Shown: positions 277-9,697 of the stretch, piece after piece
Position numbering within the stretch: position 1 is the stretch's first letter
How the letters are laid out: each line of letters starts with the position of its first letter
Source of the DNA: Armatimonadota bacterium
Lineage (GTDB): Bacteria; Armatimonadota; Zipacnadia; Zipacnadales; UBA5352
DNA length: 10,072 nt
Reading direction: 5' to 3'
Assembly (NCBI GenBank): GCA_034722055.1
Contig: JAYENL010000125.1
Coordinates: 1-10,072 of the forward strand
Program-made: the position numbers and the translations under genes
The notes under the pieces: generated by a model
The model's database searches: none
The model's input: only the letters and a program-made list of their open reading frames with translations
Told to the model about the DNA's origin: nothing

Positions 277-897
277 TTACTCCGTCGGCTGCGTGGGGTC
301 CCAGTAGATGGGCGTGTCGAGCTGCTCCTCCCGCGCCCACTTCACATGGCCGTCCGCGAAGCCGTAGATCACCCCATCGTTGTGCCGCTGTGGCCAGTTG
401 TTGCCCGAGAAGCTGGTGTCGGCGGGCGCCCCGCAGATGTTGTTGCCGGGATCGGTGATCCACCAGCCGTCGTCGCCAGTCTTCCCGTTGGCGCCGATGG
501 CCTCGGGACGCACGTCGCCCACGGTGATCTTGGTGGAGGCGTCCCAGAAGCTGTTCAGGGGCTTGCCGCTGGCCAGGTAGGCCATGCCATAGCCGGGCGC
601 CTTGTCTTTGCGGTCGGGGCAGAACATGATCTGGCGGTTGCGGGTATACGGGAAGATGGCGTTATACCACTGGGTGTCGGCGGTGAACCCGATCTGCCCG
701 TAGGGGATGATCTCATCGTAGTCCTGCGCGTACATGCTGATCGCCAGTGTGAGCTGCCTGACGTTGGAGATGCAGGCCGCCTGCCGCCCCTTGCCCCGTG
801 CCCTCGAGAACACAGGGAAGAGGATGGACGCGAGAATGGAGATAATCGCGATGACGACGAGCAGCTCGATGAGTGTGAAACCGTTACGGAACCGCAT
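277..897 (-). CDS. Prepilin-type N-terminal cleavage/methylation protein with C-terminal H-X9-DG motif (DUF1559-like)
   Basis: N-terminus MRFRNGFTLIELLVVIAIISILASILFPVFSRARGKGRQAACISN, then MYAQDYDE and FCP, with C-terminal RHNDGVIYGFADGHVKW (H-X9-DG). SD AAGGAGG at 906-912 on minus. Confidence 0.93.
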   Translation of the reverse strand: MRFRNGFTLIELLVVIAIISILASILFPVFSRARGKGRQAACISNVRQLTLAISMYAQDYDEIIPYGQIGFTADTQWYNAIFPYTRNRQIMFCPDRKDKAPGYGMAYLASGKPLNSFWDASTKITVGDVRPEAIGANGKTGDDGWWITDPGNNICGAPADTSFSGNNWPQRHNDGVIYGFADGHVKWAREEQLDTPIYWDPTQPTE

Positions 898-1033: not shown

Positions 1034-3736
1034 TCAGATTCCATGCAAGCAGTCCACCTGAAGGGTGACATCGCATGGGTAACGTCCGGCGCGCGATCCG
1101 TAGATGGTGAGCCCCCCGCGGTCCGCGCCGGAGTCACTGACGGTCAACCGCACACCGATTCCCCCCTCGCTGACGGCCGCCCGAGCCCTGTCGCCACTCA
1201 GGCGCGCCGTCACAATCTGTCCATAGCGCCCCAGCAGCCCGTGCATGTGCGACAGCGCCCCGCGGGCGTCCGCCGGCTGGTCGGGAAGCACCACCCGCCG
1301 CACGGTCTGCTCCCCAAAGGCAATCTCCACCAGCGACGGCCAGCGGTCCTCGTCCGTCTGCGGAGCACCGGGCCTGGCGCTGGAGAGCTCCGCCATCAGC
1401 GTCAGCGCACAGATCTGGCCAGGCTCCACCTCATCCGGAAGAGCGAAACGCCACTGCGCTGTGCCATCTCCCTGGCCGGCCAGCAGATGCACCTCGCCAC
1501 CGACCTCCGCGCGCTCCACATCGCCCTCGAAGTGGGCCTGGCAGTCGCCTGGAAGAGCCGTGAGCACCATCGCGCCGCCGGTGCCCGTGGGTGGTAGTTC
1601 TGTGACGCTCTCGAGGACCCGCAAGTTCCATGCCACCGGACGCCCCAGCGTGTCGTGCAGGAAAGCCTGCACTCGGGTGAGGCCCGGCTCGTCGGGGACT
1701 GTGAGCGTGAGGCTGGCGCTCTCGGCGTCGAAGTCGTCGAGGCCGCGCGGGCGGATGATGACCCGCTCGCGGCAGAGGCGGTCGATGAAGGTGGCCGACC
1801 AGCGGAGGCGTCCGGCCAGCTTTTCGGCCCTCGCGGACGGCCGCAGGAAGAGGGGGATCGAGACCTCCGCGCCCGGCTCCACGGTGCTGCCGGGAGGGCC
1901 GTCGAAGCCCACGAAGCTCTCCCCCAGGATCATGGCGGGATCGTAGCCGAACTGCTTGGGGCTCCGGTCATAGTTGTACAGCCCGTTGTGCTCCCACTCG
2001 ATGTCAGTCAGCTCGGTGTAGACGTAGCCGCATATCTCCTCATGCCGCCGCAGCTCGTTGGTGAGCAACAGCAGGCACCAGGAGACGTCGAGGTCGCCCA
2101 TGCGGGCCGAGATGCCGCCGTACTCGCTGCACAGCAGCGGCTCGTCGCCCTGCGTCCGGCCGGGAACGTAGTTGAAGTCCGAGCCGGGGCAGGTGCGCTC
2201 AACGACCTCCTCGATATGCGCACGGGCCTCCTGGTAATCGTTGATGTAGAAGTGCCAGGAGTTGATGTCAGTGATCACGTGGTCATTCAGGCACGCGGAG
2301 TTGTCCTCCACCAGCCGGGTGGGATCGAGCTCGGAGGCGCGCTCGTAGCAGTCCCTGACCCACTGCTGCCGCTGTGGCATCTGAGCGTAGTCGCGCCCGC
2401 CCAGCCCCCAGGTCTCGTTGAAGAGGCACCACGCGATGATGCTGGGATGGTTGAAGTCGCGCCGGATCTGCCCCCACGCGGTGCGCTCCCAGCGCTCTCG
2501 CCCCACCTGCGAGTACCCGTCATAGCCCAGGTTGGGCATGTCGCACATGAGCATGACACCCACTCGATCCGCCCAGTAGCAGTACCGGGGATCAGGGGTC
2601 TTGATGTGCAGCCGCAGGAAGTTGAGGCCGGCCTGGCGCGCCAGCAGCAGGTCCCGGCGGATGTCGGCGTTGCTGGCATGGGCGTAAACGCCCTCGGGGG
2701 TGAATGACTGATCCAGAGCCCCCCGGAGATAGACGGGCTCCCCGTTGAGCCGGATGTAGGTAGGGCCGTCCTCGCCCAGCGGCCCCACGTCCACGTCCCG
2801 CATGCCGAACTGGGTGTGCACGGTGTCCACGACCTGGCCCTCGCGCAGCAGGTGCACCTGCAGGCGGTACATGTGTGGTGCGTCCGGGCTCCAGGGGATG
2901 GCGTCGGGAACCGGCAGCTCCAGCCGTCCCCGGCCGTCGGTTACCGGCACTGGCTCGCCGTGCGCCGCGGCGGCGCCTGTGGAGGCTCGCAGCTCGGCGG
3001 CGACGCTGAGGCTAGACTCGTCATCGCCCGCAACCTCGACGAGGACCGTGGCGCGCTCCTCCGCCAGTGACGGCAGCACGGGGGCGGCGAGGATGTGCGC
3101 GCGGGCCCGCGGCTCCAGCCACACGGTCTGCCAGATGCCGCTCGTGGGCGTGTACCAGCTCGGCACCTGCTTGCCCAGCGGCTTGCGGCTCTCCTCCTGC
3201 GGATCGTGCACGCGGATGACGAGGGTGTTCTCGCCCTCCACCAGCGCGTCCGTGACATCGAAGCTCACCGGCAGGTAGCCGCTCTCGGCCTGCCCCACCG
3301 CAGCACCATTGACCCAGGCCCGCAGCTCCCAGTCCGCGGCCTCCACATTCAGGAAGACGCGGCGGTCGTGCCAGTCCGCCGGGAGCTCGAAGCCGCGCCG
3401 GTACCAGCCGATGGTGTGGCGGGGCGCCTCGCGGTAGTTCTCGACCGTGACGGAGGCCGGGTCCCGGTAGACCTCCCGGCTGAACCAGCTCTGGTTGCCG
3501 GCCTGCGCCTCAGTCCCCCACGCCAGGTGGCTCTCCCAGGCAAAGGGCACCACGATCCGCCGCGAGAGGGCGACCTCCGGGGGCTCGAACCAGCCATCGG
3601 CGAGGCCGGCGTTGTCAGGGTCGAACTCGAAGTCCCACGTTCCGTTGAGGTTGAGCCAGTCAACGCCGGGGCGCAGGCCGCGGTGGAAGTCGGGCCTGGG
3701 ATGCTCCGGTCTGGGCGGGCGGATGGGCACATCCAT
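1034..3736 (-). CDS. Glycoside hydrolase family 2 (beta-galactosidase/glucuronidase superfamily) with a C-terminal extension
   Basis: WLNLNGTWDF, GWYRR, SGYLP and SGIWQTVWLE in the sugar-binding domain. FGMRDV and LNGEPVYLRG lead into the TIM barrel, with NHPSIIAWCLFNETWG (acid/base E441) and PLLCSEYGG (nucleophile E538). No signal peptide. SD GGGAG at 3744-3748 on minus. Confidence 0.93.
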   Translation of the reverse strand: MDVPIRPPRPEHPRPDFHRGLRPGVDWLNLNGTWDFEFDPDNAGLADGWFEPPEVALSRRIVVPFAWESHLAWGTEAQAGNQSWFSREVYRDPASVTVENYREAPRHTIGWYRRGFELPADWHDRRVFLNVEAADWELRAWVNGAAVGQAESGYLPVSFDVTDALVEGENTLVIRVHDPQEESRKPLGKQVPSWYTPTSGIWQTVWLEPRARAHILAAPVLPSLAEERATVLVEVAGDDESSLSVAAELRASTGAAAAHGEPVPVTDGRGRLELPVPDAIPWSPDAPHMYRLQVHLLREGQVVDTVHTQFGMRDVDVGPLGEDGPTYIRLNGEPVYLRGALDQSFTPEGVYAHASNADIRRDLLLARQAGLNFLRLHIKTPDPRYCYWADRVGVMLMCDMPNLGYDGYSQVGRERWERTAWGQIRRDFNHPSIIAWCLFNETWGLGGRDYAQMPQRQQWVRDCYERASELDPTRLVEDNSACLNDHVITDINSWHFYINDYQEARAHIEEVVERTCPGSDFNYVPGRTQGDEPLLCSEYGGISARMGDLDVSWCLLLLTNELRRHEEICGYVYTELTDIEWEHNGLYNYDRSPKQFGYDPAMILGESFVGFDGPPGSTVEPGAEVSIPLFLRPSARAEKLAGRLRWSATFIDRLCRERVIIRPRGLDDFDAESASLTLTVPDEPGLTRVQAFLHDTLGRPVAWNLRVLESVTELPPTGTGGAMVLTALPGDCQAHFEGDVERAEVGGEVHLLAGQGDGTAQWRFALPDEVEPGQICALTLMAELSSARPGAPQTDEDRWPSLVEIAFGEQTVRRVVLPDQPADARGALSHMHGLLGRYGQIVTARLSGDRARAAVSEGGIGVRLTVSDSGADRGGLTIYGSRAGRYPCDVTLQVDCLHGI

Positions 3737-3909
3737 AATCTCACTCCCTGCAGCGGAAGCGAACTAAGGCGGCGGATGGGCGTTCTGTAGGCTGAGGGCC
3801 CGTGTCGCTGTTGCCAGGCCGAGTTTCCGCCACCGGCGAGGGGCGACCTTCACCTCAGCCCAAGGCCGGCAATCTGAAAGTCGGGGAGGTCTGTGGGGGA
3901 TGCGCGACG

Positions 3910-3940
3910 AAAAAACCTTAAGATGGTATACTATAATGTA
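3910..3940. promoter_or_regulatory. AT-rich divergent promoter region between GH2 and the wHTH/KaiC operon
   Basis: Plus strand has TG-G-TATACT (3924-3932) overlapping a perfect TATAAT (3932-3937), preceded by an A-tract (3910-3915). The minus strand of the same patch gives TACATT and TATAGT. It is the only strongly AT-rich patch in the 3737-3975 gap. Confidence 0.65.
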
Positions 3941-3975
3941 CTCCATCGGGCTGCAGGCTGACGACGGACACGCGG

Positions 3976-4374
3976 ATGATGACCATGGATGAACGCGTGC
4001 GAGGCTTCATCGAGGAGACGGCACAGGACCTGGTGGGGCTCGACGTGGCGCTGTTCTACCAGGCCAACCCGCGCGCGTTTGATACCGCCGCCGGCATCGC
4101 GCTGCGCACCCACCGCTCGGTGGACGAGGTGGAGCCGGCGCTTGTCCGCATGGCCGAGCAGGGCTACCTTGAGGCGCTGTCGCGGGGCGACGGGCGCTAC
4201 CAGGTCTTCGCCCTCTCCCCCTCTCCGGAGGTCTGGCGGATGCTCTGCCACGTCAGCGACGCCTACCACGAGGACCCGGACGCCCGCAAGGAGATCATCC
4301 TGATGCTCGTGCAGCGGCGGCTCGAGCAGCGGGCCGCCGGCCAGAACGCGGGTGGGAGTGGCGCGGATGGCTGA
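3976..4374 (+). CDS. Small winged-helix-like protein (putative regulator or KaiC partner); the start may be ATG 3985
   Basis: GC3-rich codon usage. The pattern LDVALFYQANP-AFDTAAGIA-RTHRSVDEVEPALVRMAEQGYLE followed by a beta-hairpin (GDGRYQVFAL) fits HTH plus wing. Its TGA (4372-4374) overlaps the next gene's ATG (4367). Confidence 0.8.
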   Translation: MMTMDERVRGFIEETAQDLVGLDVALFYQANPRAFDTAAGIALRTHRSVDEVEPALVRMAEQGYLEALSRGDGRYQVFALSPSPEVWRMLCHVSDAYHEDPDARKEIILMLVQRRLEQRAAGQNAGGSGADG

Positions 4375-6991
4375 GTGGGTCAGTACCGGGATGCCGGGGC
4401 TGGACGAGCTTCTCGGCGGGGGCCTGCGCCGCGGCTCCTGCACGCTGCTGGAGGGCATCCCCGGCACCGGGAAGACCACCGTGGGGCTCGGCTTCCTCTA
4501 TCACGGCGCTGGCGAGGCCGGGGAGCCGGGCATCGCCATCACCTTCGAGCAGTTCCCCGAGCAGATGATCGAGGACGCTGCCCAGTTCGGCTGGGACATC
4601 GCCGCACTGGAGTCCCAGGGCCAGTTGCGCATCATGTGCACCTCTCCGGACGTGTTCCTCGATCAGCTCAGTGAGGTCGGCGGGGTGGTCGATCGCCTCG
4701 TCACCGAGATGGGCGCCCAGCGGATACTCATCGACAGCGCCTCTCACCTGGAACAGGTCACCGATGACCCCCGGGAGCTGCGATCGCTGTTCTACAGCAT
4801 GATCAACGGCCTCAAGCGAGCCGGCCTGACGACGGTGGTGACCAAGGAGCTCGGAGCCACCGACCTCGTGGACATCCCCTTCGAGGAGTATCTGTGCGAC
4901 ACCGTCGTCCGGCTGGATAACCGCATGGTCGGCGACTTCCGGCGGCGCCGCTTCGTGGAGATCGTGAAGTCGCGCGGCCGCGCCCACCGCTCTGGCCGCC
5001 ACGGCTTCGAGCTGACCGCGGCGGGACCGGAGGTCTACCCCCGCTACGAGCCGGCGCCCAAGCAGATGGCCGAGACCTGCCCCGTGGATCGCGTCTCCAC
5101 CGGCGTGGCAGGCATCGACCGCATGCTCGACGGTGGACTGGTGGCGGGCAGCGCCACGCTGGTGGCCGGCAGCGCGGGCGTGGGCAAGACGACGCTCGGC
5201 CTTCAGTTCATCCATCAAGGCGGCGAGATCGGGGAGCCGGGGGTCTTCGTGACCTTCGAGGAGTCCCCCGTCAAGCTCACCTGCCAGGCGGCCAGCTTCG
5301 GGATCGACCTGCAGGGGATGCGCGACCAGGGCCTGGTCAGCATTCTCCACCGGTTCCCGATCTCGGTGCGCTTCGAGAAGCTGCTGCTGGACATCATCGA
5401 CGAGATCGACCGCCTGGGCGCCAAGCGCCTGGTCTTCGACAGCCTCACCGACCTGGACCTGGCCTTCGGGACTGAGGACAGCGTGCGGGAGGCCGTCCAC
5501 GAGCTGGTGAGCGTGCTGGACTCCCGAGGCGTGACGGCCATCGTCGTGACCGAGGTGCCGGAGCTGTTCGGCCAGACCTACGTCTCCAGCGAGCATCTGT
5601 CCATCATCGTGGACGGCATCATCCTCATGAAGTACCTGGAGCTGGAGAGCGAGATCCAGCGCGCCATCTCGGTGCTGAAGATGCGCGGCTCGGGCCATGA
5701 CACTGGCATCTGGCGGTATGTGATCGAGGACCGGGGCATTGATGTGCTGGGCCGCTTCGAGGGCGCCGAGGGCCTGATGGCGGGCGCGGCCCGCACCACC
5801 GCCATCGCGCTGTCGGTACGCAGCTTCAGCGAGTTCGACGAGCAGCTCAACGCCGAGCTGCTGCAGCGCTTCTCGCAGATGCACCCCAACGTACAGCCGG
5901 TCTCCCTCGAGATCCCCTATAACCCCGATGAGGCGCTGGACACCGTTCGCACCGCTCTGCGCGCGGACAGCACTCACCTGTCGGTGGCTCCCCTGTGCCT
6001 CTACTGGACGCCGGAGGTGGTGGCCTCCGGCCAACTGCGGGTCGTGGACGAGCTGCTGCCGCCAAGCGAGCGGGAGCAGCACATGGAGGAGATCGTTGAG
6101 CCGGCAATGATGGACGGGGAGCTCTACGCCGTCCCCGCCATCTCGGTCTGCGGCACGCTGCTGTTCCGCCGCGATCTGCTTGAGAAGCATGGCTTCGACG
6201 CCCCGCCGGCCACCTGGGATGAGCTCGTGGAGCAGGCCGCGAAGATCACCGCCGACGAGCCGGGCGAGCTCATCGGCTTCCAGTTCCCCGCATACCTCTA
6301 CGAGGGCCTCAGCAGCTCCTTCCTGACGAACCTGTGGAGCAACGGGGGCTCGGTGGTCGGCGAGGACGGCGCCTGCCGCCTCGACAGCCCGGAGGCGCTG
6401 GAGGCCCTCCGCTTCATGCACTCCCTGGTGCATGAGCACCGCCTCACGCCCGTCAGCGTGACAACCTACAGCGGCGGCCTGGAGCCACAGGAGGACTTCA
6501 TCGAGGGCCGCACGGTCTTCCTCTACATGCTGCCCAGCGTGCTGCAGGAGATCAACCGCCCCGAGAGCCCGCTGCAGGGCAAGGTCGGGGTGGCCGGGCC
6601 GCCGCACGGCCCGCGCGGCGACCGCGGCTACAGCTTCCTGGGCGGCTGGCACTTCGGCATTCCAGTCAACGCCCGCGCTCCGGGCGCGGCCGGCGAGTTC
6701 ATCCGCTTCATGGCCAGCCCGGAGGTGCAGAAGGAGCGGGCCATGCGCGGGGGGCCGGCGCCGACCATCCAGTCGCTGTACCGCGATCCGGAGGTGCTGG
6801 CCTTCAATCCGCACTACCCCACCCTCTACGAGCTGCTCACCTCCGGCCGCAAGCGTCACGAGATCCCCAGCTACCTGGAGGTCTCGCGGCGCATGCAGCG
6901 ACACCTGCACCCCGTCCTGACCGGGGAGGCGACGCCGGAGGAGGCCCTCGAGAGGCTCTACCCCGAGGTCCGCGACCTCGTCGAGCAGTAG
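4367..6991 (+). CDS. Double-domain KaiC-family (RAD55/KaiC) ATPase fused to a C-terminal sugar ABC-type solute-binding domain
   Basis: Domain 1: VSTGMPGLDELLGGG, Walker A GIPGTGKT (4454-4477), TFEQ, ILIDS, VKSRG. Domain 2: RVSTGVAGIDRMLDGG, GSAGVGKT (5168-5191), TFEES, LVFDS, LKMRGSGHD. From ~5801 SBP family 1 motifs: HPNV, DGELYAVP, LLFRRDLLEKHG, PPATWDEL, YEGL, LGGW, TPEEAL. ATG 4367 is preferred over GTG 4352 because of SD GGGAG at 4354-4358. Ends in TAG TAG. Confidence 0.92.
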   Translation: MAEWVSTGMPGLDELLGGGLRRGSCTLLEGIPGTGKTTVGLGFLYHGAGEAGEPGIAITFEQFPEQMIEDAAQFGWDIAALESQGQLRIMCTSPDVFLDQLSEVGGVVDRLVTEMGAQRILIDSASHLEQVTDDPRELRSLFYSMINGLKRAGLTTVVTKELGATDLVDIPFEEYLCDTVVRLDNRMVGDFRRRRFVEIVKSRGRAHRSGRHGFELTAAGPEVYPRYEPAPKQMAETCPVDRVSTGVAGIDRMLDGGLVAGSATLVAGSAGVGKTTLGLQFIHQGGEIGEPGVFVTFEESPVKLTCQAASFGIDLQGMRDQGLVSILHRFPISVRFEKLLLDIIDEIDRLGAKRLVFDSLTDLDLAFGTEDSVREAVHELVSVLDSRGVTAIVVTEVPELFGQTYVSSEHLSIIVDGIILMKYLELESEIQRAISVLKMRGSGHDTGIWRYVIEDRGIDVLGRFEGAEGLMAGAARTTAIALSVRSFSEFDEQLNAELLQRFSQMHPNVQPVSLEIPYNPDEALDTVRTALRADSTHLSVAPLCLYWTPEVVASGQLRVVDELLPPSEREQHMEEIVEPAMMDGELYAVPAISVCGTLLFRRDLLEKHGFDAPPATWDELVEQAAKITADEPGELIGFQFPAYLYEGLSSSFLTNLWSNGGSVVGEDGACRLDSPEALEALRFMHSLVHEHRLTPVSVTTYSGGLEPQEDFIEGRTVFLYMLPSVLQEINRPESPLQGKVGVAGPPHGPRGDRGYSFLGGWHFGIPVNARAPGAAGEFIRFMASPEVQKERAMRGGPAPTIQSLYRDPEVLAFNPHYPTLYELLTSGRKRHEIPSYLEVSRRMQRHLHPVLTGEATPEEALERLYPEVRDLVEQ

Positions 6992-7041
6992 TAGCCCCGG
7001 CCCGGAACATCCTTCCGCCCTGCTGGCTCTACCCCATCAGC

Positions 7042-7731
7042 ATGACTGCTGCGACAGGCGACGGTAGTGGCATAGAGTGCCCCGGATCGCCGCGTGCGAG
7101 CGGGCGGAGGCCCGCCTTGGTCACGGGCGTCGTCCTGATAGCCGCTCTGGCCGTGATCGGCATGGTACTGGCGCGGTGGGTCGGCCGGCCGTCTGCTCCT
7201 TCCAAGGTGGCGGTCACCCTGGTCGAGGGCGCCGACCGCGAGTTGGTCGGGGAGATCGCGCGCCGCCTGCAGGCGAAGCTGGGGGTTCAGGTGCTCGTGG
7301 CGGAGGAAATGCTCCCTCTGCCGGATGACGCCTACGACGCCGAGCGCGAGCAGTACGAGTCCAGCGCCTTCCTGTCTCGACTGCATGAGGTCAGCGAGGA
7401 CGATCGCGTCCTGCTTCTGGCCGTCACGGAGGCGGACCTCTACACAGGCGAAATGAACTTCGTGCTGGGGCAGGCGGTGCTTGGTGGCGGCGTGGCGGTG
7501 TGCTCGCTGGCGCGCCTGCGTCCCGAGTTCTGGGGACGCGAGCCCGATGGGCCGCTGCTGCTGGAACGAGGCGTGAAGGTGTTTATGCACGAGATCGGTC
7601 ATGCCCTGGGGCTGCGGCACTGTCCGGATGAGCGGTGCGTGATGCACTTCGGCGCCACGGTCATGTCGGTGGATCGCACGCCGGCCCGATTCTGCGACCG
7701 GTGTGCGCGCCGGGCCGGCCTGCCGCGGTGA
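7042..7731 (+). CDS. Archaemetzincin-family (peptidase M54) zinc metalloprotease with N-terminal membrane anchor; alternative start TTG 7117
   Basis: AYDAEREQY, ADLY, NFVLGQA, SLARLRPEFWG, HEIGHALGLRHC (7588-7623), CVM Met-turn and FCDRC completing the Cys4 site. Hydrophobic segment LVTGVVLIAALAVIGMVLA at 7117-7173. Confidence 0.88.
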   Translation: MTAATGDGSGIECPGSPRASGRRPALVTGVVLIAALAVIGMVLARWVGRPSAPSKVAVTLVEGADRELVGEIARRLQAKLGVQVLVAEEMLPLPDDAYDAEREQYESSAFLSRLHEVSEDDRVLLLAVTEADLYTGEMNFVLGQAVLGGGVAVCSLARLRPEFWGREPDGPLLLERGVKVFMHEIGHALGLRHCPDERCVMHFGATVMSVDRTPARFCDRCARRAGLPR

Positions 7732-7755
7732 ACCACGCACGGAAGGACCAGCGCC

Positions 7756-8289
7756 ATGCGGGTGCGTCTGATCCTCTTCGGCGACGCTGACCGGCGGCTG
7801 GCCCAGCAGATCGCCCGGCGCGTCGAGGAGGTCCTGGTGCCGACTGCGACTGTGGCCCCCGGCTCGCTGCCGTTGCCCGCCGAGGTCTACGATCCGGCGC
7901 GGGGGCAGTACCTCGTCGGCGCGCTGCTGAACAGGGTGCGAGAGGCGCAGGCTCCGGCAGCGGACCGCGTGCTGGGAGTCGCCGACGCGGACCTGTATGC
8001 GGGAGATCTGAACTTCGTCTTCGGCCAGGCGGAGCTGCCGGGGCGGGTGGCGGTGATGTCCCTGACCCGCCTCCGGCCGGAGTTCTGGGGCGGGCAGCCG
8101 GACGAGAAGCTGCTGCTTCAGCGCGCGGCTAAGGAGGCCGTGCATGAGCTGGGGCACACCCTGGGCCTGCGGCACTGCCCTAACCCCAACTGCGTCATGC
8201 ACTTCTCGAATCGCCTCGCGGACACGGATCGCAAGAGCGTCGAGCCCTGTCCGCGCTGCATGGCGAAGATCGATCGGCAGTTGCGGTAG
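7756..8289 (+). CDS. amzA: Archaemetzincin-family (peptidase M54) zinc metalloprotease, soluble
   Basis: YDPARGQY, DADLYAGDLNFVFGQA, RLRPEFWG, KEAVHELGHTLGLRHC, CVMHFSN, DTDRKS, PCPRC. SD-like GGAAGGA at 7741-7747. Confidence 0.92.
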   Translation: MRVRLILFGDADRRLAQQIARRVEEVLVPTATVAPGSLPLPAEVYDPARGQYLVGALLNRVREAQAPAADRVLGVADADLYAGDLNFVFGQAELPGRVAVMSLTRLRPEFWGGQPDEKLLLQRAAKEAVHELGHTLGLRHCPNPNCVMHFSNRLADTDRKSVEPCPRCMAKIDRQLR

Positions 8290-8316
8290 ACCCGCCCGTG
8301 CCCTTGGTGGTAATCT
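8287..8316 (+). promoter_or_regulatory. Possible sigma70-type promoter firing into the 8320-8520 intergenic region
   Basis: TAGACC (8287-8292), 18-nt spacer, TAATCT (8311-8316) with TG at 8308-8309 (extended -10). Confidence 0.3.
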
Positions 8317-8494
8317 GCGCAACCCTCCGTATGGTGGCGAGGGGAGCGCTCGGCGGCTTGGTTGTCTTCAAGATGCGCGGCGTGCCTGGTGGAGGGGCTG
8401 CCGGGCGCGCAGCGCCCGGTGAGGCCTGTGAGCAGGGCGAGCAGGCCGAAGGTTCCACCCCGGCCCGGGACGCTCCGCCCAAGGCCCAAACAGC

Positions 8495-8519
8495 GTGCAG
8501 GCGAGGGCGCCTGCACTCC
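8495..8519. terminator. Hairpin between convergent genes (possible bidirectional terminator or GGAG-type REP)
   Basis: GTGCAGGCG-AGGG-CGCCTGCAC, a 9-bp stem. It is followed by TCCTT on plus and GCTGTTT on minus. On minus it reads GGAG-TGCAGGCG-CCCT-CGCCTGCA. Confidence 0.5.
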
Positions 8520-8614
8520 TTAACGCGTGTGCCGGGATGGAACCTGAGCAAACGCACCACCGTGACGCCGCATAATACCGGAACTTCTGCTACGCACTGC
8601 CAGGATGTGTCCGG

Positions 8615-9697
8615 CTACCTGATCTTCACCGCCTTGCCCTGGTCGGCGGACTTGTACATGGCGTCCAGGATCTTCATGATGCGCAGGCCGTCGGTGGCCG
8701 GCGAGATGGGCTCCTGGCCCTCCACCAGGCAGTCCACGAAGTGCTCCACCGCCGTGTGCCTGCCCATCGCCTCATCGGGCTCGAGCTTAACCACCCGATC
8801 CACAGCCTCGCCCTGCTCCTGGGTATACAGCTCCAGGGTGTCGATGGCGGTCTCATCAACGCCGTCGATGGCAAAGACGCGCTCCAGGCTCGCGCCGGCC
8901 TCAGTGCCGCAGAGCGTGGAGTAGACCCACTCCCGCTTGATGCGCGACGCCCAGGAGGCCTCCAGCATGACGGTCTGGCCGTCCGCGAACTTGAGCATCC
9001 CCACAGCCATGTCCTCGACGTCGAAGGTCCCCTTGGGGTCCGGGGTGCCCCACGGCCCCAGAGCCTCCATCTCCGGCCCGAACACCGAGTAGGTGGAGGC
9101 CATGCACATCTCGGGCTCGGGGTTGCCCATCAGCCACAGAGTCAGGTCCAGCATGTGCACCGCAAGATCGATCAGCGGCCCGCCCCCTGCGATCTCCTTC
9201 TGCGTAAACCAGCCGCCCCATCCCGGAATGCCATTGCGGCGGATCCAGCCGCAGCGGGCGAAGTAGATGTCGCCGAAAGTGCCGTCATCCACGTGCCCCT
9301 TCAGCACCTGGGCCTCCGGCCGGAAGCGGTTGTTGAACTGGACCATCAGGGTCAGGCCGGCGTCCTCGGCGGCATCCACCATCTTCTGGCCCTCTTTGGC
9401 GGTCCGGGCCAGCGGCTTCTCACAGAGGACGTTCTTCTCGGCCTTCAGGCAGTCGATGGTGATGGGGGCATGGAACTTGTTGGGGACGCAGACGCTGACA
9501 CAGTCCAGCTCCAGCTCCAGCATGTCCTCGTAGTCAGTGAACAGCTTCTCGATCTCGTAGTCCTCGCCGGTCTCCGCCAGCAGCTCCTCATTGAGATCGC
9601 ACAGCGCTACGACCTCGGAATCCTCGTGTGCCTGGTAGGCCTCGATGTGATACGTCCCGATCCCGGCCCCGATGACTCCGGCCTTGATCTTGGCCAC
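8615..9697 (-). CDS. Gfo/Idh/MocA family NAD(P)-dependent oxidoreductase
   Basis: Rossmann motif KAGVIGAGIG, VPNKFH, VLCEKP, RFRP, GGGPLIDLAVHMLD, FDVED. GTG start with SD GGAGG at 9706-9710 on minus. Confidence 0.95.
   Translation of the reverse strand: MAKIKAGVIGAGIGTYHIEAYQAHEDSEVVALCDLNEELLAETGEDYEIEKLFTDYEDMLELELDCVSVCVPNKFHAPITIDCLKAEKNVLCEKPLARTAKEGQKMVDAAEDAGLTLMVQFNNRFRPEAQVLKGHVDDGTFGDIYFARCGWIRRNGIPGWGGWFTQKEIAGGGPLIDLAVHMLDLTLWLMGNPEPEMCMASTYSVFGPEMEALGPWGTPDPKGTFDVEDMAVGMLKFADGQTVMLEASWASRIKREWVYSTLCGTEAGASLERVFAIDGVDETAIDTLELYTQEQGEAVDRVVKLEPDEAMGRHTAVEHFVDCLVEGQEPISPATDGLRIMKILDAMYKSADQGKAVKIR

What the first reader, a model, noticed from the sequence alone, without database searches (positions are those of the whole stretch)
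4367..6991. KaiC-type double ATPase fused to a cytoplasmic sugar-binding domain: candidate ligand-gated KaiC switch
Seen: one continuous ORF with two complete KaiC/RecA domains (to ~5800) followed directly by a full ~395-aa family-1 solute-binding domain. There is no signal peptide, lipobox or TM segment, and no ABC permease or ATPase gene in the window. Known: such SBPs are normally extracytoplasmic transporter subunits, though they are reused as cytoplasmic sensors in some regulators. KaiC-like ATPases act as signalling hubs beyond circadian clocks. Inference: the SBP reads an intracellular sugar or metabolite and controls ATPase or autokinase activity of a KaiC hexamer. I do not recognise this architecture as a characterised system.
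Basis: partly seen in the sequence, partly recalled or inferred. Interest (0 to 1): 0.88.

Follow-up and report, generated by a model that had tools for sequence, protein, structure and literature searches.

The report
KaiC switch with rewired sugar-binding fold
A real, conserved gene of uncultured Armatimonadota joins a clock-type (KaiC) ATPase to an intracellular copy of a sugar-transporter binding protein whose pocket has been rebuilt, so it is probably a metabolite-controlled on/off switch with an unknown ligand rather than a clock or a transporter.

Summary
The fusion is real. ORF 4367-6991 encodes an 874-aa protein: two KaiC domains, then a 396-aa solute-binding fold, with no export signal. 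The join is in frame in 30 of 41 related genomes. In 77 full-length copies it is 33 residues long with no indel.

The binding domain starts right after the A-loop, where KaiA acts on cyanobacterial KaiC. ATPase motifs and the S431-equivalent serine are invariant. T432 is lost in 77 of 77, and kaiA and kaiB were not found, so this is a switch, not a clock.

'Sugar-binding' needs correction. The domain derives from trehalose/maltose-binding proteins, but 5 of 9 published pocket positions are replaced, 4 of them in all copies, while the pocket stays conserved. The ligand is open.

Its family precedes other KaiCs and heads histidine kinases and a cyclase. Relatives carry a cupin instead of the binding domain, or add an AraC domain.

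No paper was found on this architecture. The scan found this fusion before on another genome (e1-1229351). Verdict: new variant of a known kind; interest 0.68.

The parts
4367..6991 (+). KaiC(CI)-KaiC(CII)-solute-binding-fold fusion gene, 874 aa
4379..5041 (+). CI ATPase domain (res 5-225): Walker A G30-T38, E61, D123, E173/E174, K201-x-R203
   Evidence: K36, E61, D123, K201 and R203 in 77 of 77; E173 in 76 of 77; position 62 is Q in 58 and E in 19; alignment to solved KaiC
5093..5752 (+). CII ATPase/kinase domain (res 243-462): Walker A G268-T276, E298/E299, D358, E425, R432, K438-x-R440
   Evidence: K274, E299, D358, E425, R432, K438 and R440 in 77 of 77; E298 in 71 of 77
5600..5605 (+). S412 (equivalent to KaiC S431, candidate sole phospho-site) and I413 (equivalent to T432, not phosphorylatable)
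   Evidence: S in 77 of 77; I/V/M in 77 of 77
5753..5851 (+). A-loop and join into the first strand and helix of the binding domain (R463-N495)
   Evidence: 33 residues, no indel in 77 of 77; 71% mean identity over res 462-500 against 59-60% for the three domains
5801..6988 (+). Solute-binding fold of trehalose/maltose-binding (MalE3/TMBP) descent with a remodelled pocket (res 479-874)
3976..4374 (+). 132-aa winged-helix protein whose stop overlaps the fusion's start by 8 nt; candidate KaiC partner and output
   Evidence: adjacent in 24 of 24 loci L021-L044 and 6 of 6 metagenome loci that hold upstream DNA; fold
3885..3911 (+). Promoter-like element GGAGG-N16-GACGAA, about 76 nt before the winged-helix start; sigma-H/ECF-like by recalled consensus
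   Evidence: same motif 69-92 nt before the start on the + strand in 17 of 25 intergenic regions; pattern was defined from these same sequences
1034..3736 (-). Divergent GH2 glycoside hydrolase, 900 aa, no signal peptide by eye; loosely linked neighbour
   Evidence: immediately divergent in 20 of 24 loci, about 4 kb away in 2, not seen in 2; 3 of 6 metagenome loci

Best explanation
A cytoplasmic one-component switch. SHOWN: two catalytically intact KaiC domains, one conserved phospho-site serine, a binding-protein fold joined without slack to the end of the A-loop, a rebuilt but conserved cleft, and an overlapping winged-helix gene. INFERRED: (1) the protein forms a KaiC-type hexamer with six binding domains above the CII ring; (2) a small cytoplasmic metabolite, probably carbohydrate-related but not trehalose or maltose bound in the canonical way, closes the binding domain; (3) closure moves the A-loop, the lever KaiA pulls in cyanobacteria, and so changes nucleotide exchange and phosphorylation of S412; (4) with one site and no KaiA or KaiB this gives two states, not an oscillation; (5) the winged-helix protein reads the state of the ring and passes it to gene expression, perhaps including the divergent GH2.
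For: The join is conserved and has no indels. An exposed A-loop drives KaiA-independent phosphorylation in KaiC (bioRxiv 10.1101/2022.11.28.518275, passages). KaiC-part and binding-part trees of 25 copies agree: 11 of 11 well-supported KaiC splits recur, and the rates are equal. The binding domains form one clade on a long stem (1.19) with short tips, as expected after a change of function. The nine pocket-equivalent sites are 88% conserved against 68% for the domain (permutation p 0.006). New invariant polar residues (D491, N495, D521) lie in segments next to the cleft by sequence position. The slot after CII takes other domains: a cupin in G268 and a MarR-type HTH in P0106. A KaiC-binding-fold-AraC protein exists (P0269, L133), and its binding domain groups with this clade (SH-aLRT 99.8, FastTree 0.985). 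The winged-helix gene lies directly upstream in 21 of 21 fusion-type KaiC rows among 301 genomes.
Against: No ligand is identified. The five replaced pocket sites alone are not significantly more conserved than the domain average (81%, p 0.13). In R. sphaeroides KaiC, removing the C-terminal coiled coil barely changed phosphorylation, so an appendage after the A-loop need not gate it. G030 keeps a fusion-type KaiC that ends at the A-loop with no binding domain. Six genomes of family f4 keep the winged-helix gene without a KaiC match. The AraC grouping joins two long branches and may be false. The GH2 link may be inherited gene order.
Confidence: 0.55

Rival explanations
1. The binding fold no longer binds a small molecule. 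It is a structural or protein-docking cap that holds the A-loop in one position, joins hexamers, or binds a peptide or protein partner.
For: Four polar or aromatic sugar contacts are lost in 77 of 77 and the cleft is more hydrophobic (C544, I/L/M592, L/V594, L722). Some of the most conserved segments (793-800, 655-662) are not known sugar contacts. The R. sphaeroides tail assembles dodecamers.
Against: G759/G760/W761, R830, W547 and Y645/E646 of the canonical cleft are kept. The whole two-lobed fold is kept at the same rate as the ATPase. A cupin ligand-binding domain occupies the same slot in a relative.
Confidence: 0.2
2. It senses trehalose, maltose, sucrose or glucose much as its transporter ancestors bind them.
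For: The closest solved relatives are MalE3 (E 1.5e-61), TMBP and the Thermus alpha-glycoside protein. Part of one subsite is kept. A glycoside hydrolase gene is usually adjacent.
Against: Canonical D (34 of 35 relatives) is C/S/G, W (34 of 35) is L/R, the conserved acidic pair at 703-704 is gone (G704 invariant) and D/N (30 of 35) is L/V/T/A/I, in 77 of 77 fusions. PMC12096829 (passages) places these in subsites 1 and 2. A triple mutant including the first Asp lost binding. The adjacent GH2 family acts on beta-glycosides (established knowledge), not alpha-glucosides.
Confidence: 0.1
3. It is a KaiA/KaiB-independent timer or damped oscillator entrained by a metabolite.
For: It has the complete double-domain KaiC fold and both active sites. 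Pseudomonas KaiC homologues change phosphorylation with culture age (bioRxiv 10.1101/2022.01.26.477890, abstract and passages).
Against: T432 is lost in 77 of 77. It scores far below the clock-KaiC cut-offs (266 against 546; 347 against 408). KaiA and KaiB were not found in G000, which is 93% complete. The 5 of 41 genomes with KaiB over cut-off have it at other places, beside more distant KaiC genes in at least three.
Confidence: 0.07
4. It is an artefact or a transport component (misassembly, or a binding protein that serves an ABC importer).
For: A same-genus genome has a frameshift inside the binding domain, not at the join. Public records label the protein 'extracellular solute-binding protein'.
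Against: 76 other full-length clusters exist. There is no export signal. A crude TM/motif scan of L021-L044 found no sugar-ABC permease. No stand-alone protein with the remodelled pocket was found: the 8 close hits of 217-693 aa are fusion fragments (4 start in CII or at the join, 4 start inside the binding domain), and the next hits are canonical at 40% identity or less.
Confidence: 0.02

Closest known systems
Cyanobacterial clock KaiC (S. elongatus; PDB 1tf7, 2gbl, 9ofh)
   Same: Double RecA fold, about 32% identity, both Walker A motifs, arginine fingers, S431 site and an A-loop-like segment.
   Different: T432 lost; the KaiA-binding tail is replaced by a 396-aa binding fold; no kaiA or kaiB found; below family cut-offs.
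Rhodobacter sphaeroides KaiC (PDB 8dba; bioRxiv 10.1101/2022.11.28.518275, passages read)
   Same: KaiA-independent KaiC with a C-terminal extension after the A-loop.
   Different: There the extension is a coiled coil, there are two serines and KaiB is used. Here it is a ligand-binding fold, with one serine and a winged-helix partner.
Pseudomonas KaiC-like / histidine kinase modules (bioRxiv 10.1101/2022.01.26.477890, abstract and passages read)
   Same: Non-clock double-domain KaiC as a signalling hub; one phospho-site in P. putida; KaiC binds a kinase through the kinase's N-terminal domain. The paper names the input to KaiC as an open question.
   Different: No fused sensor there, and docking is by PAS. 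Here the input domain is covalently attached and the candidate docking domain is a winged helix.
Archaeal KaiC-like signalling hubs (Makarova, Galperin, Koonin 2017 mBio: not held, recalled; cited in passages of PMC5847659)
   Same: KaiC-family ATPases fused to or beside sensor and output domains, for example KaiC-REC.
   Different: Bacterial, double-domain, and with a solute-binding fold. I could not check whether that paper or its supplements list such a fusion.
Trehalose/maltose-binding proteins TmMalE3 (6dtq), TMBP (1eu8), Thermus alpha-glycoside-binding protein (6j9w), Athe_2310 (PMC12096829)
   Same: Same fold (Z 49.3, 34% identity); GGW motif, Arg and YEG motif kept.
   Different: No export signal or permease; Asp, Asp, Glu, Trp and the RNWPY motif are replaced in all copies.

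Membership tests
KaiC-like ATPases (Pfam PF06745), double-domain | Two tandem KaiC/RecA domains above the curated cut-off | tested here: met
   349 bits against 26.6, 2 stretches; fold match
KaiC-like ATPases (Pfam PF06745), double-domain | Walker A, Walker B Asp, catalytic Glu and K-x-R finger in both domains | tested here: met
   Invariant in 77 of 77, except CI position 62 (Q 58, E 19) and E298 (71 of 77); KaiC residue numbers and roles are recalled, motif equivalence is
KaiC-like ATPases (Pfam PF06745), double-domain | ATP-dependent hexamer | not testable with these tools
   Six copies exceed the size limit of the complex tool
Circadian clock KaiC (TIGR02655, NF006799) | Score above the equivalog cut-off | tested here: not met
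   266 against 546 and 347 against 408
Circadian clock KaiC (TIGR02655, NF006799) | Adjacent phospho-sites S431 and T432 | tested here: not met
   S in 77 of 77; second site I/V/M in 77 of 77
Circadian clock KaiC (TIGR02655, NF006799) | kaiA and kaiB partners and a KaiA-binding tail | tested here: not met
   Neither found in G000, 93% complete, with a working control; the tail is replaced by the binding fold
Circadian clock KaiC (TIGR02655, NF006799) | Self-sustained phosphorylation rhythm | not testable with these tools
   Needs biochemistry
ABC-importer solute-binding proteins, family 1 | Two-lobed fold, Pfam SBP_bac_1 / SBP_bac_8 | tested here: met
ABC-importer solute-binding proteins, family 1 | Export signal or membrane anchor | tested here: not met
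   N-terminus is the KaiC fold; hydropathy maximum 1.24. Most of the 34 canonical relatives listed show hydrophobic leaders by eye
ABC-importer solute-binding proteins, family 1 | Cognate permease genes in the locus | tested here: inconclusive
   None in the window; a crude scan of 24 loci found none; the rest of the genome was not examined for orphan permeases
Trehalose/maltose-binding subfamily (TMBP, MalE3, Athe_2310) | Pocket residues D69, F119, D121, E225, W243, G278, G279, W280, R351 (Athe_2310 numbers, PMC12096829) | tested here: not met
   Mapped by motif through 35 canonical relatives, not through the Athe_2310 sequence itself: C544, I/L/M592, L/V594, G704 and L722 replaced; G759, G760, W761 and R830 kept
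Winged-helix DNA-binding regulators (upstream gene) | Winged-helix fold | tested here: met
   Model pLDDT 91; best Z 8.7, rmsd 3.7, 90 aligned, tied with many ArsR/MarR chains; profile E 4e-6 to 3r0a
Winged-helix DNA-binding regulators (upstream gene) | Sequence-specific DNA binding (basic recognition helix, conserved operator) | tested here: inconclusive
   Recognition helix averages net charge -1.8 across 53 rows, helix 2 +1.7; no conserved palindrome seen by eye in 25 aligned intergenic regions, output partly cut

The most novel reading that the evidence does not exclude
A Kai-like signalling system rebuilt from unrelated parts. The captured transporter binding protein is a built-in, ligand-controlled substitute for KaiA at the A-loop, tuned to a yet unknown intracellular signal. 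The winged-helix family is not mainly a DNA binder but a KaiC-docking module, the counterpart of the KaiB-like domain of SasA. It stands alone beside KaiC or carries histidine kinases, a cyclase or a MerR domain to the ring.
Probability: 0.25. Interest if true: 0.87.

Novelty: new variant of a known kind. Interest (0 to 1): 0.68.

Why it matters
What non-clock KaiC proteins sense is an open question, stated as such in the Pseudomonas preprint. Here the input domain is covalently attached at the lever that KaiA uses, so input, switch and candidate output can be purified as two soluble proteins and assayed directly. It would show how a KaiC ring works as a ligand sensor and how a transporter binding protein was rebuilt into a cytoplasmic receptor for a new ligand. 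It would also assign a role to an unnamed winged-helix family that heads orphan histidine kinases in this phylum.

Tried and rejected
Complex prediction of KaiC(1-476) with the winged-helix protein gave no answer (score 0.09, mark 0.32); it is not used for or against binding.

The run search listed no RNA holder; this is no evidence on expression.

Makarova 2017 is not held under DOI, PMC id or PubMed id, so neither it nor its supplements were seen. A KaiC-solute-binding fusion could be listed there.

Literature searches that found nothing on this architecture: KaiC + Armatimonad (3 unrelated papers in the listing); KaiC + solute-binding + fusion + domain architecture (0); at least two of KaiC, substrate-binding protein, Zipacnadia (11 listed, none relevant by title and abstract start). 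Subscription journals are mostly not covered.

The sigma-70 promoter and terminator scan found nothing in 3700-8700. The sigma-H-like motif shows no clear genome-wide spacing peak (208 hits at spacer 16 against up to 196 at other spacers). Its 24 of 50 strands against a shuffle mean of 2.2 is inflated, because the pattern came from these sequences.

The winged-helix alignment was too diverse for the locus search.

One search used a wrong slice of L133, so its tree is discarded; one search replaces it. In one search the printed residue letters of the pocket list are mis-indexed; the values are correct. The careful tree did not finish and the quick tree is quoted.

The archaemetzincin pair was rejected as part of the system (4 of 24 loci). 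The atlas gave only generic binding-protein and MarR-like clusters.
Full report
OBSERVATION. The frame 4367-6991 (+) is open for 874 codons. Pfam gives two KaiC ATPase stretches and a family-1 solute-binding domain. The model from a 44-sequence alignment (mean pLDDT 88.6, pTM 0.64) matches KaiC over 1-478 and MalE3 over 477-872. There is no leader or TM segment (hydropathy maximum 1.24). GC content shows no step at the join. The other genes scanned are a GH2, two archaemetzincins, a Gfo/Idh/MocA oxidoreductase, a DUF1559 protein and a small ORF without a Pfam match.

NOT AN ARTEFACT. The protein search returned 149 hits and listed 120. I used the 76 that are full length (49-79% identity) plus the query, and dropped 6 partial fusions (P0076, P0080-P0084) and the non-fusion hits. 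Among 41 related genomes the join is in one frame in 30, including 17 of 17 of the same family. G030 has a KaiC ending at the A-loop, and 10 genomes lack the gene. G001 has a frameshift inside the binding domain. Of 24 full or near-full loci from the species collection, 22 are titled Armatimonadota, Armatimonadia, Ca. Zipacnadia or WS1, and 2 only 'bacterium'. In a sample of 301 genomes of the phylum, fusion-type scores occur only in the window's order. Contigs of 3 of 4 brine-metagenome runs, all one study, bridge the join.

THE ATPASE. In 77 of 77 copies both Walker A lysines, both Walker B aspartates, E61, E299, E425, R432 and both K-x-R fingers are invariant. Position 62 is Gln in 58, which may slow CI (inference). 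S412 aligns with KaiC S431 and is invariant; the T432 position is I, V or M in all. Scores are far below the clock-KaiC cut-offs. KaiA and KaiB were not found in G000, 93% complete. KaiC residue roles are recalled, except S431/T432 and the A-loop.

THE JOIN. The segment RFEG..G...G aligns with the KaiC A-loop, and the first strand of the binding fold follows within a few residues. R463-N495 has 33 residues in 77 of 77, while the CI-CII linker varies from -2 to +3. Residues 462-500 are 71% identical on average against 59-60% for the domains. In cyanobacteria KaiA holds the A-loop exposed and so activates phosphorylation and nucleotide exchange; in R. sphaeroides an exposed A-loop does so without KaiA, although deleting the coiled coil behind it changed little (passages). 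A binding fold in this slot is placed to work that lever; this is inference. Related KaiCs end at the A-loop, or carry a cupin (G268) or a MarR-type HTH (P0106) there.

THE POCKET. The closest solved proteins bind alpha-linked disaccharides. PMC12096829 (passages) names the pocket residues of this subfamily. I mapped nine of them by motif through 35 canonical relatives (34 of the 93 hits, plus one repeat of P0087). Five are replaced: D to C/S/G544, F to I/L/M592, D/N to L/V/T/A/I594, E to G704 and W to L/R722. RNWPY becomes x-M-L-P-S. G759, G760, W761, R830, W547 and Y645-E646 are kept. The nine sites are 88% conserved among fusions against 68% for the domain (p 0.006); the five replaced ones alone reach 81% (p 0.13). 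D491, N495, P520, D521 and Y546 are invariant in fusions and variable in canonical proteins. Thirteen fusion domains form one clade on a stem of 1.19 with support 100 in a quick tree, and KaiC and binding-domain trees of 25 copies agree (patristic r 0.83; 11 of 11 supported KaiC splits recur, 14 of 18 the other way). No stand-alone copy with this pocket was found. Of the 70 hits longer than 693 aa, 69 are this fusion and one is P0269. So the domain was captured once, rebuilt and then held under selection. Its ligand is unknown and probably not trehalose or maltose.

THE PARTNER. The 132-aa ORF 3976-4374 overlaps the fusion's start and lies directly upstream in 24 of 24 loci and 6 of 6 metagenome loci with upstream DNA. 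It has a winged-helix fold, and 104 of 301 genomes of the phylum match its profile. From the listed rows, it precedes 21 of 21 fusion-type and 12 of 47 near-paralogue KaiC rows, and at least 55 of 150 listed hits precede a KaiC. I entered 90 of the 150 listed KaiC rows: all 68 with E below 1e-75 and 22 weaker ones picked by eye because they were adjacent. Forty-eight hits lie in frames of 320 aa or more. Eight of these were scanned: 7 are histidine kinases (4 with PAS) and 1 is a GAF-PAS-cyclase, each with the winged helix at the N-terminus. One further hit, upstream of a KaiC, is fused behind a MerR DNA-binding domain. Forty of 41 genomes with a long-frame copy have a near KaiC, and 24 of 26 genomes whose near KaiC lacks an adjacent copy have a long-frame one. 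Kin are not independent (family f37 supplies many), so no p value is claimed. Against: six f4 genomes keep the gene without a KaiC match, and G000 has only the stand-alone copy, so no such kinase route is seen in this genome. The recognition helix is acidic on average, a weak hint of protein binding.

A ROSETTA PROTEIN. P0269 and L133 (60% identical, an unclassified bacterium) join one degenerate KaiC domain, a binding fold and an AraC domain. Their binding domain groups with the fusion clade (99.8 and 0.985; both branches long) and scores 167 and 156 bits on the fusion profile against 147 and 144 on the canonical one. That genome showed no winged-helix match. This ties the KaiC-binding-fold unit to transcriptional output.

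CONTEXT. A GH2 gene is immediately divergent in 20 of 24 loci. A GGA(G/A)-N-G.(C/T)(G/A)AA element sits 69-92 nt before the winged-helix start in 17 of 25 regions, with a second copy facing the GH2 in several. It resembles sigma-H/ECF promoters (recalled). G000 has two SigH-like genes below the family cut-off (234 and 210 against 295 bits).

MECHANISM AND ODDS. Best (0.55): a ligand-gated, two-state KaiC switch with an unknown, probably carbohydrate-related ligand and the winged-helix protein as output. Rivals: ligand-free cap (0.2), canonical disaccharide sensor (0.1), timer (0.07), artefact or transport (0.02).

NOVELTY. It works like the non-clock KaiC hubs and belongs to the KaiC-like ATPase family, but fails the tests for clock KaiC, for ABC binding proteins and for the trehalose/maltose pocket. 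Three searches found no paper on the architecture. Makarova 2017 and its supplements could not be seen. Papers seen: PMC5847659, PMC12096829, PMC13311272, bioRxiv 2022.11.28.518275 and 2022.01.26.477890, passages only (the last with its abstract). The scan had noted the same fusion with its small partner on another genome and related KaiC-binding-fold proteins with AraC or HD domains; these are unchecked notes, not support. New here are the rebuilt pocket, the indel-free A-loop join and the link of the partner family to kinases.

Noticed in passing
window 7042-7731 and 7756-8289 (+): Two tandem archaemetzincin (M54) genes, both over the NF033823 cut-off and 49% identical; the first has an N-terminal hydrophobic segment. 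Seen near the fusion in only 4 of 24 loci.
   Followed up: partly
window 277-897 (-): Prepilin-type N-terminal methylation / DUF1559 / H-X9-DG protein, syntenic with the GH2 in most same-family loci.
   Followed up: partly
window 8615-9697 (-): Gfo/Idh/MocA oxidoreductase, 77-95% identical to copies a few kb downstream of the fusion in about half of the loci.
   Followed up: partly
window 3825-3851 (-) and 3932-3937 (+): A second copy of the promoter-like element faces the GH2 (by eye), and a perfect TATAAT lies 39 nt before the winged-helix start without a matching -35.
   Followed up: partly
L116:4020-5879 (-) (G268): Double-domain KaiC with a C-terminal Cupin_2 domain, a second ligand-binding appendage in the same slot.
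   Followed up: partly
L133:1324-3648 (+) and P0269: Degenerate single KaiC domain, binding fold and AraC in one protein; the next gene on the opposite strand looks like a glycoside hydrolase by eye.
   Followed up: partly
L046:38-5013 and L047:6001-9957: Unfused KaiC paralogues lie beside HAMP-V4R, STAS, anti-sigma kinase-like and RsbU_N-V4R genes, which suggests a link to partner-switching control of sigma factors.
   Followed up: partly
L115:5047-9325 (+) (G063): A KaiC paralogue with an 80-aa tail lies directly upstream of cheA.
   Followed up: no
L119:2858-5080 (+) (G070) and about 20 similar places: MerR-HTH plus winged-helix fusion directly upstream of another KaiC subfamily; only this one was scanned against Pfam.
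   Followed up: partly
L109:5005-6866 (-) (G030): Natural form without the binding domain: winged-helix gene plus a fusion-type KaiC that stops a few residues after the A-loop.
   Followed up: partly
P0154: Winged-helix domain fused to a membrane DUF7530 region and a flavin oxidoreductase-like region (the last by eye).
   Followed up: no
G000:C261:15465-16448 (-): A solute-binding match inside an 830-aa open frame; similar 800-1200-aa frames recur in relatives, possibly other binding-domain fusions.
   Followed up: no
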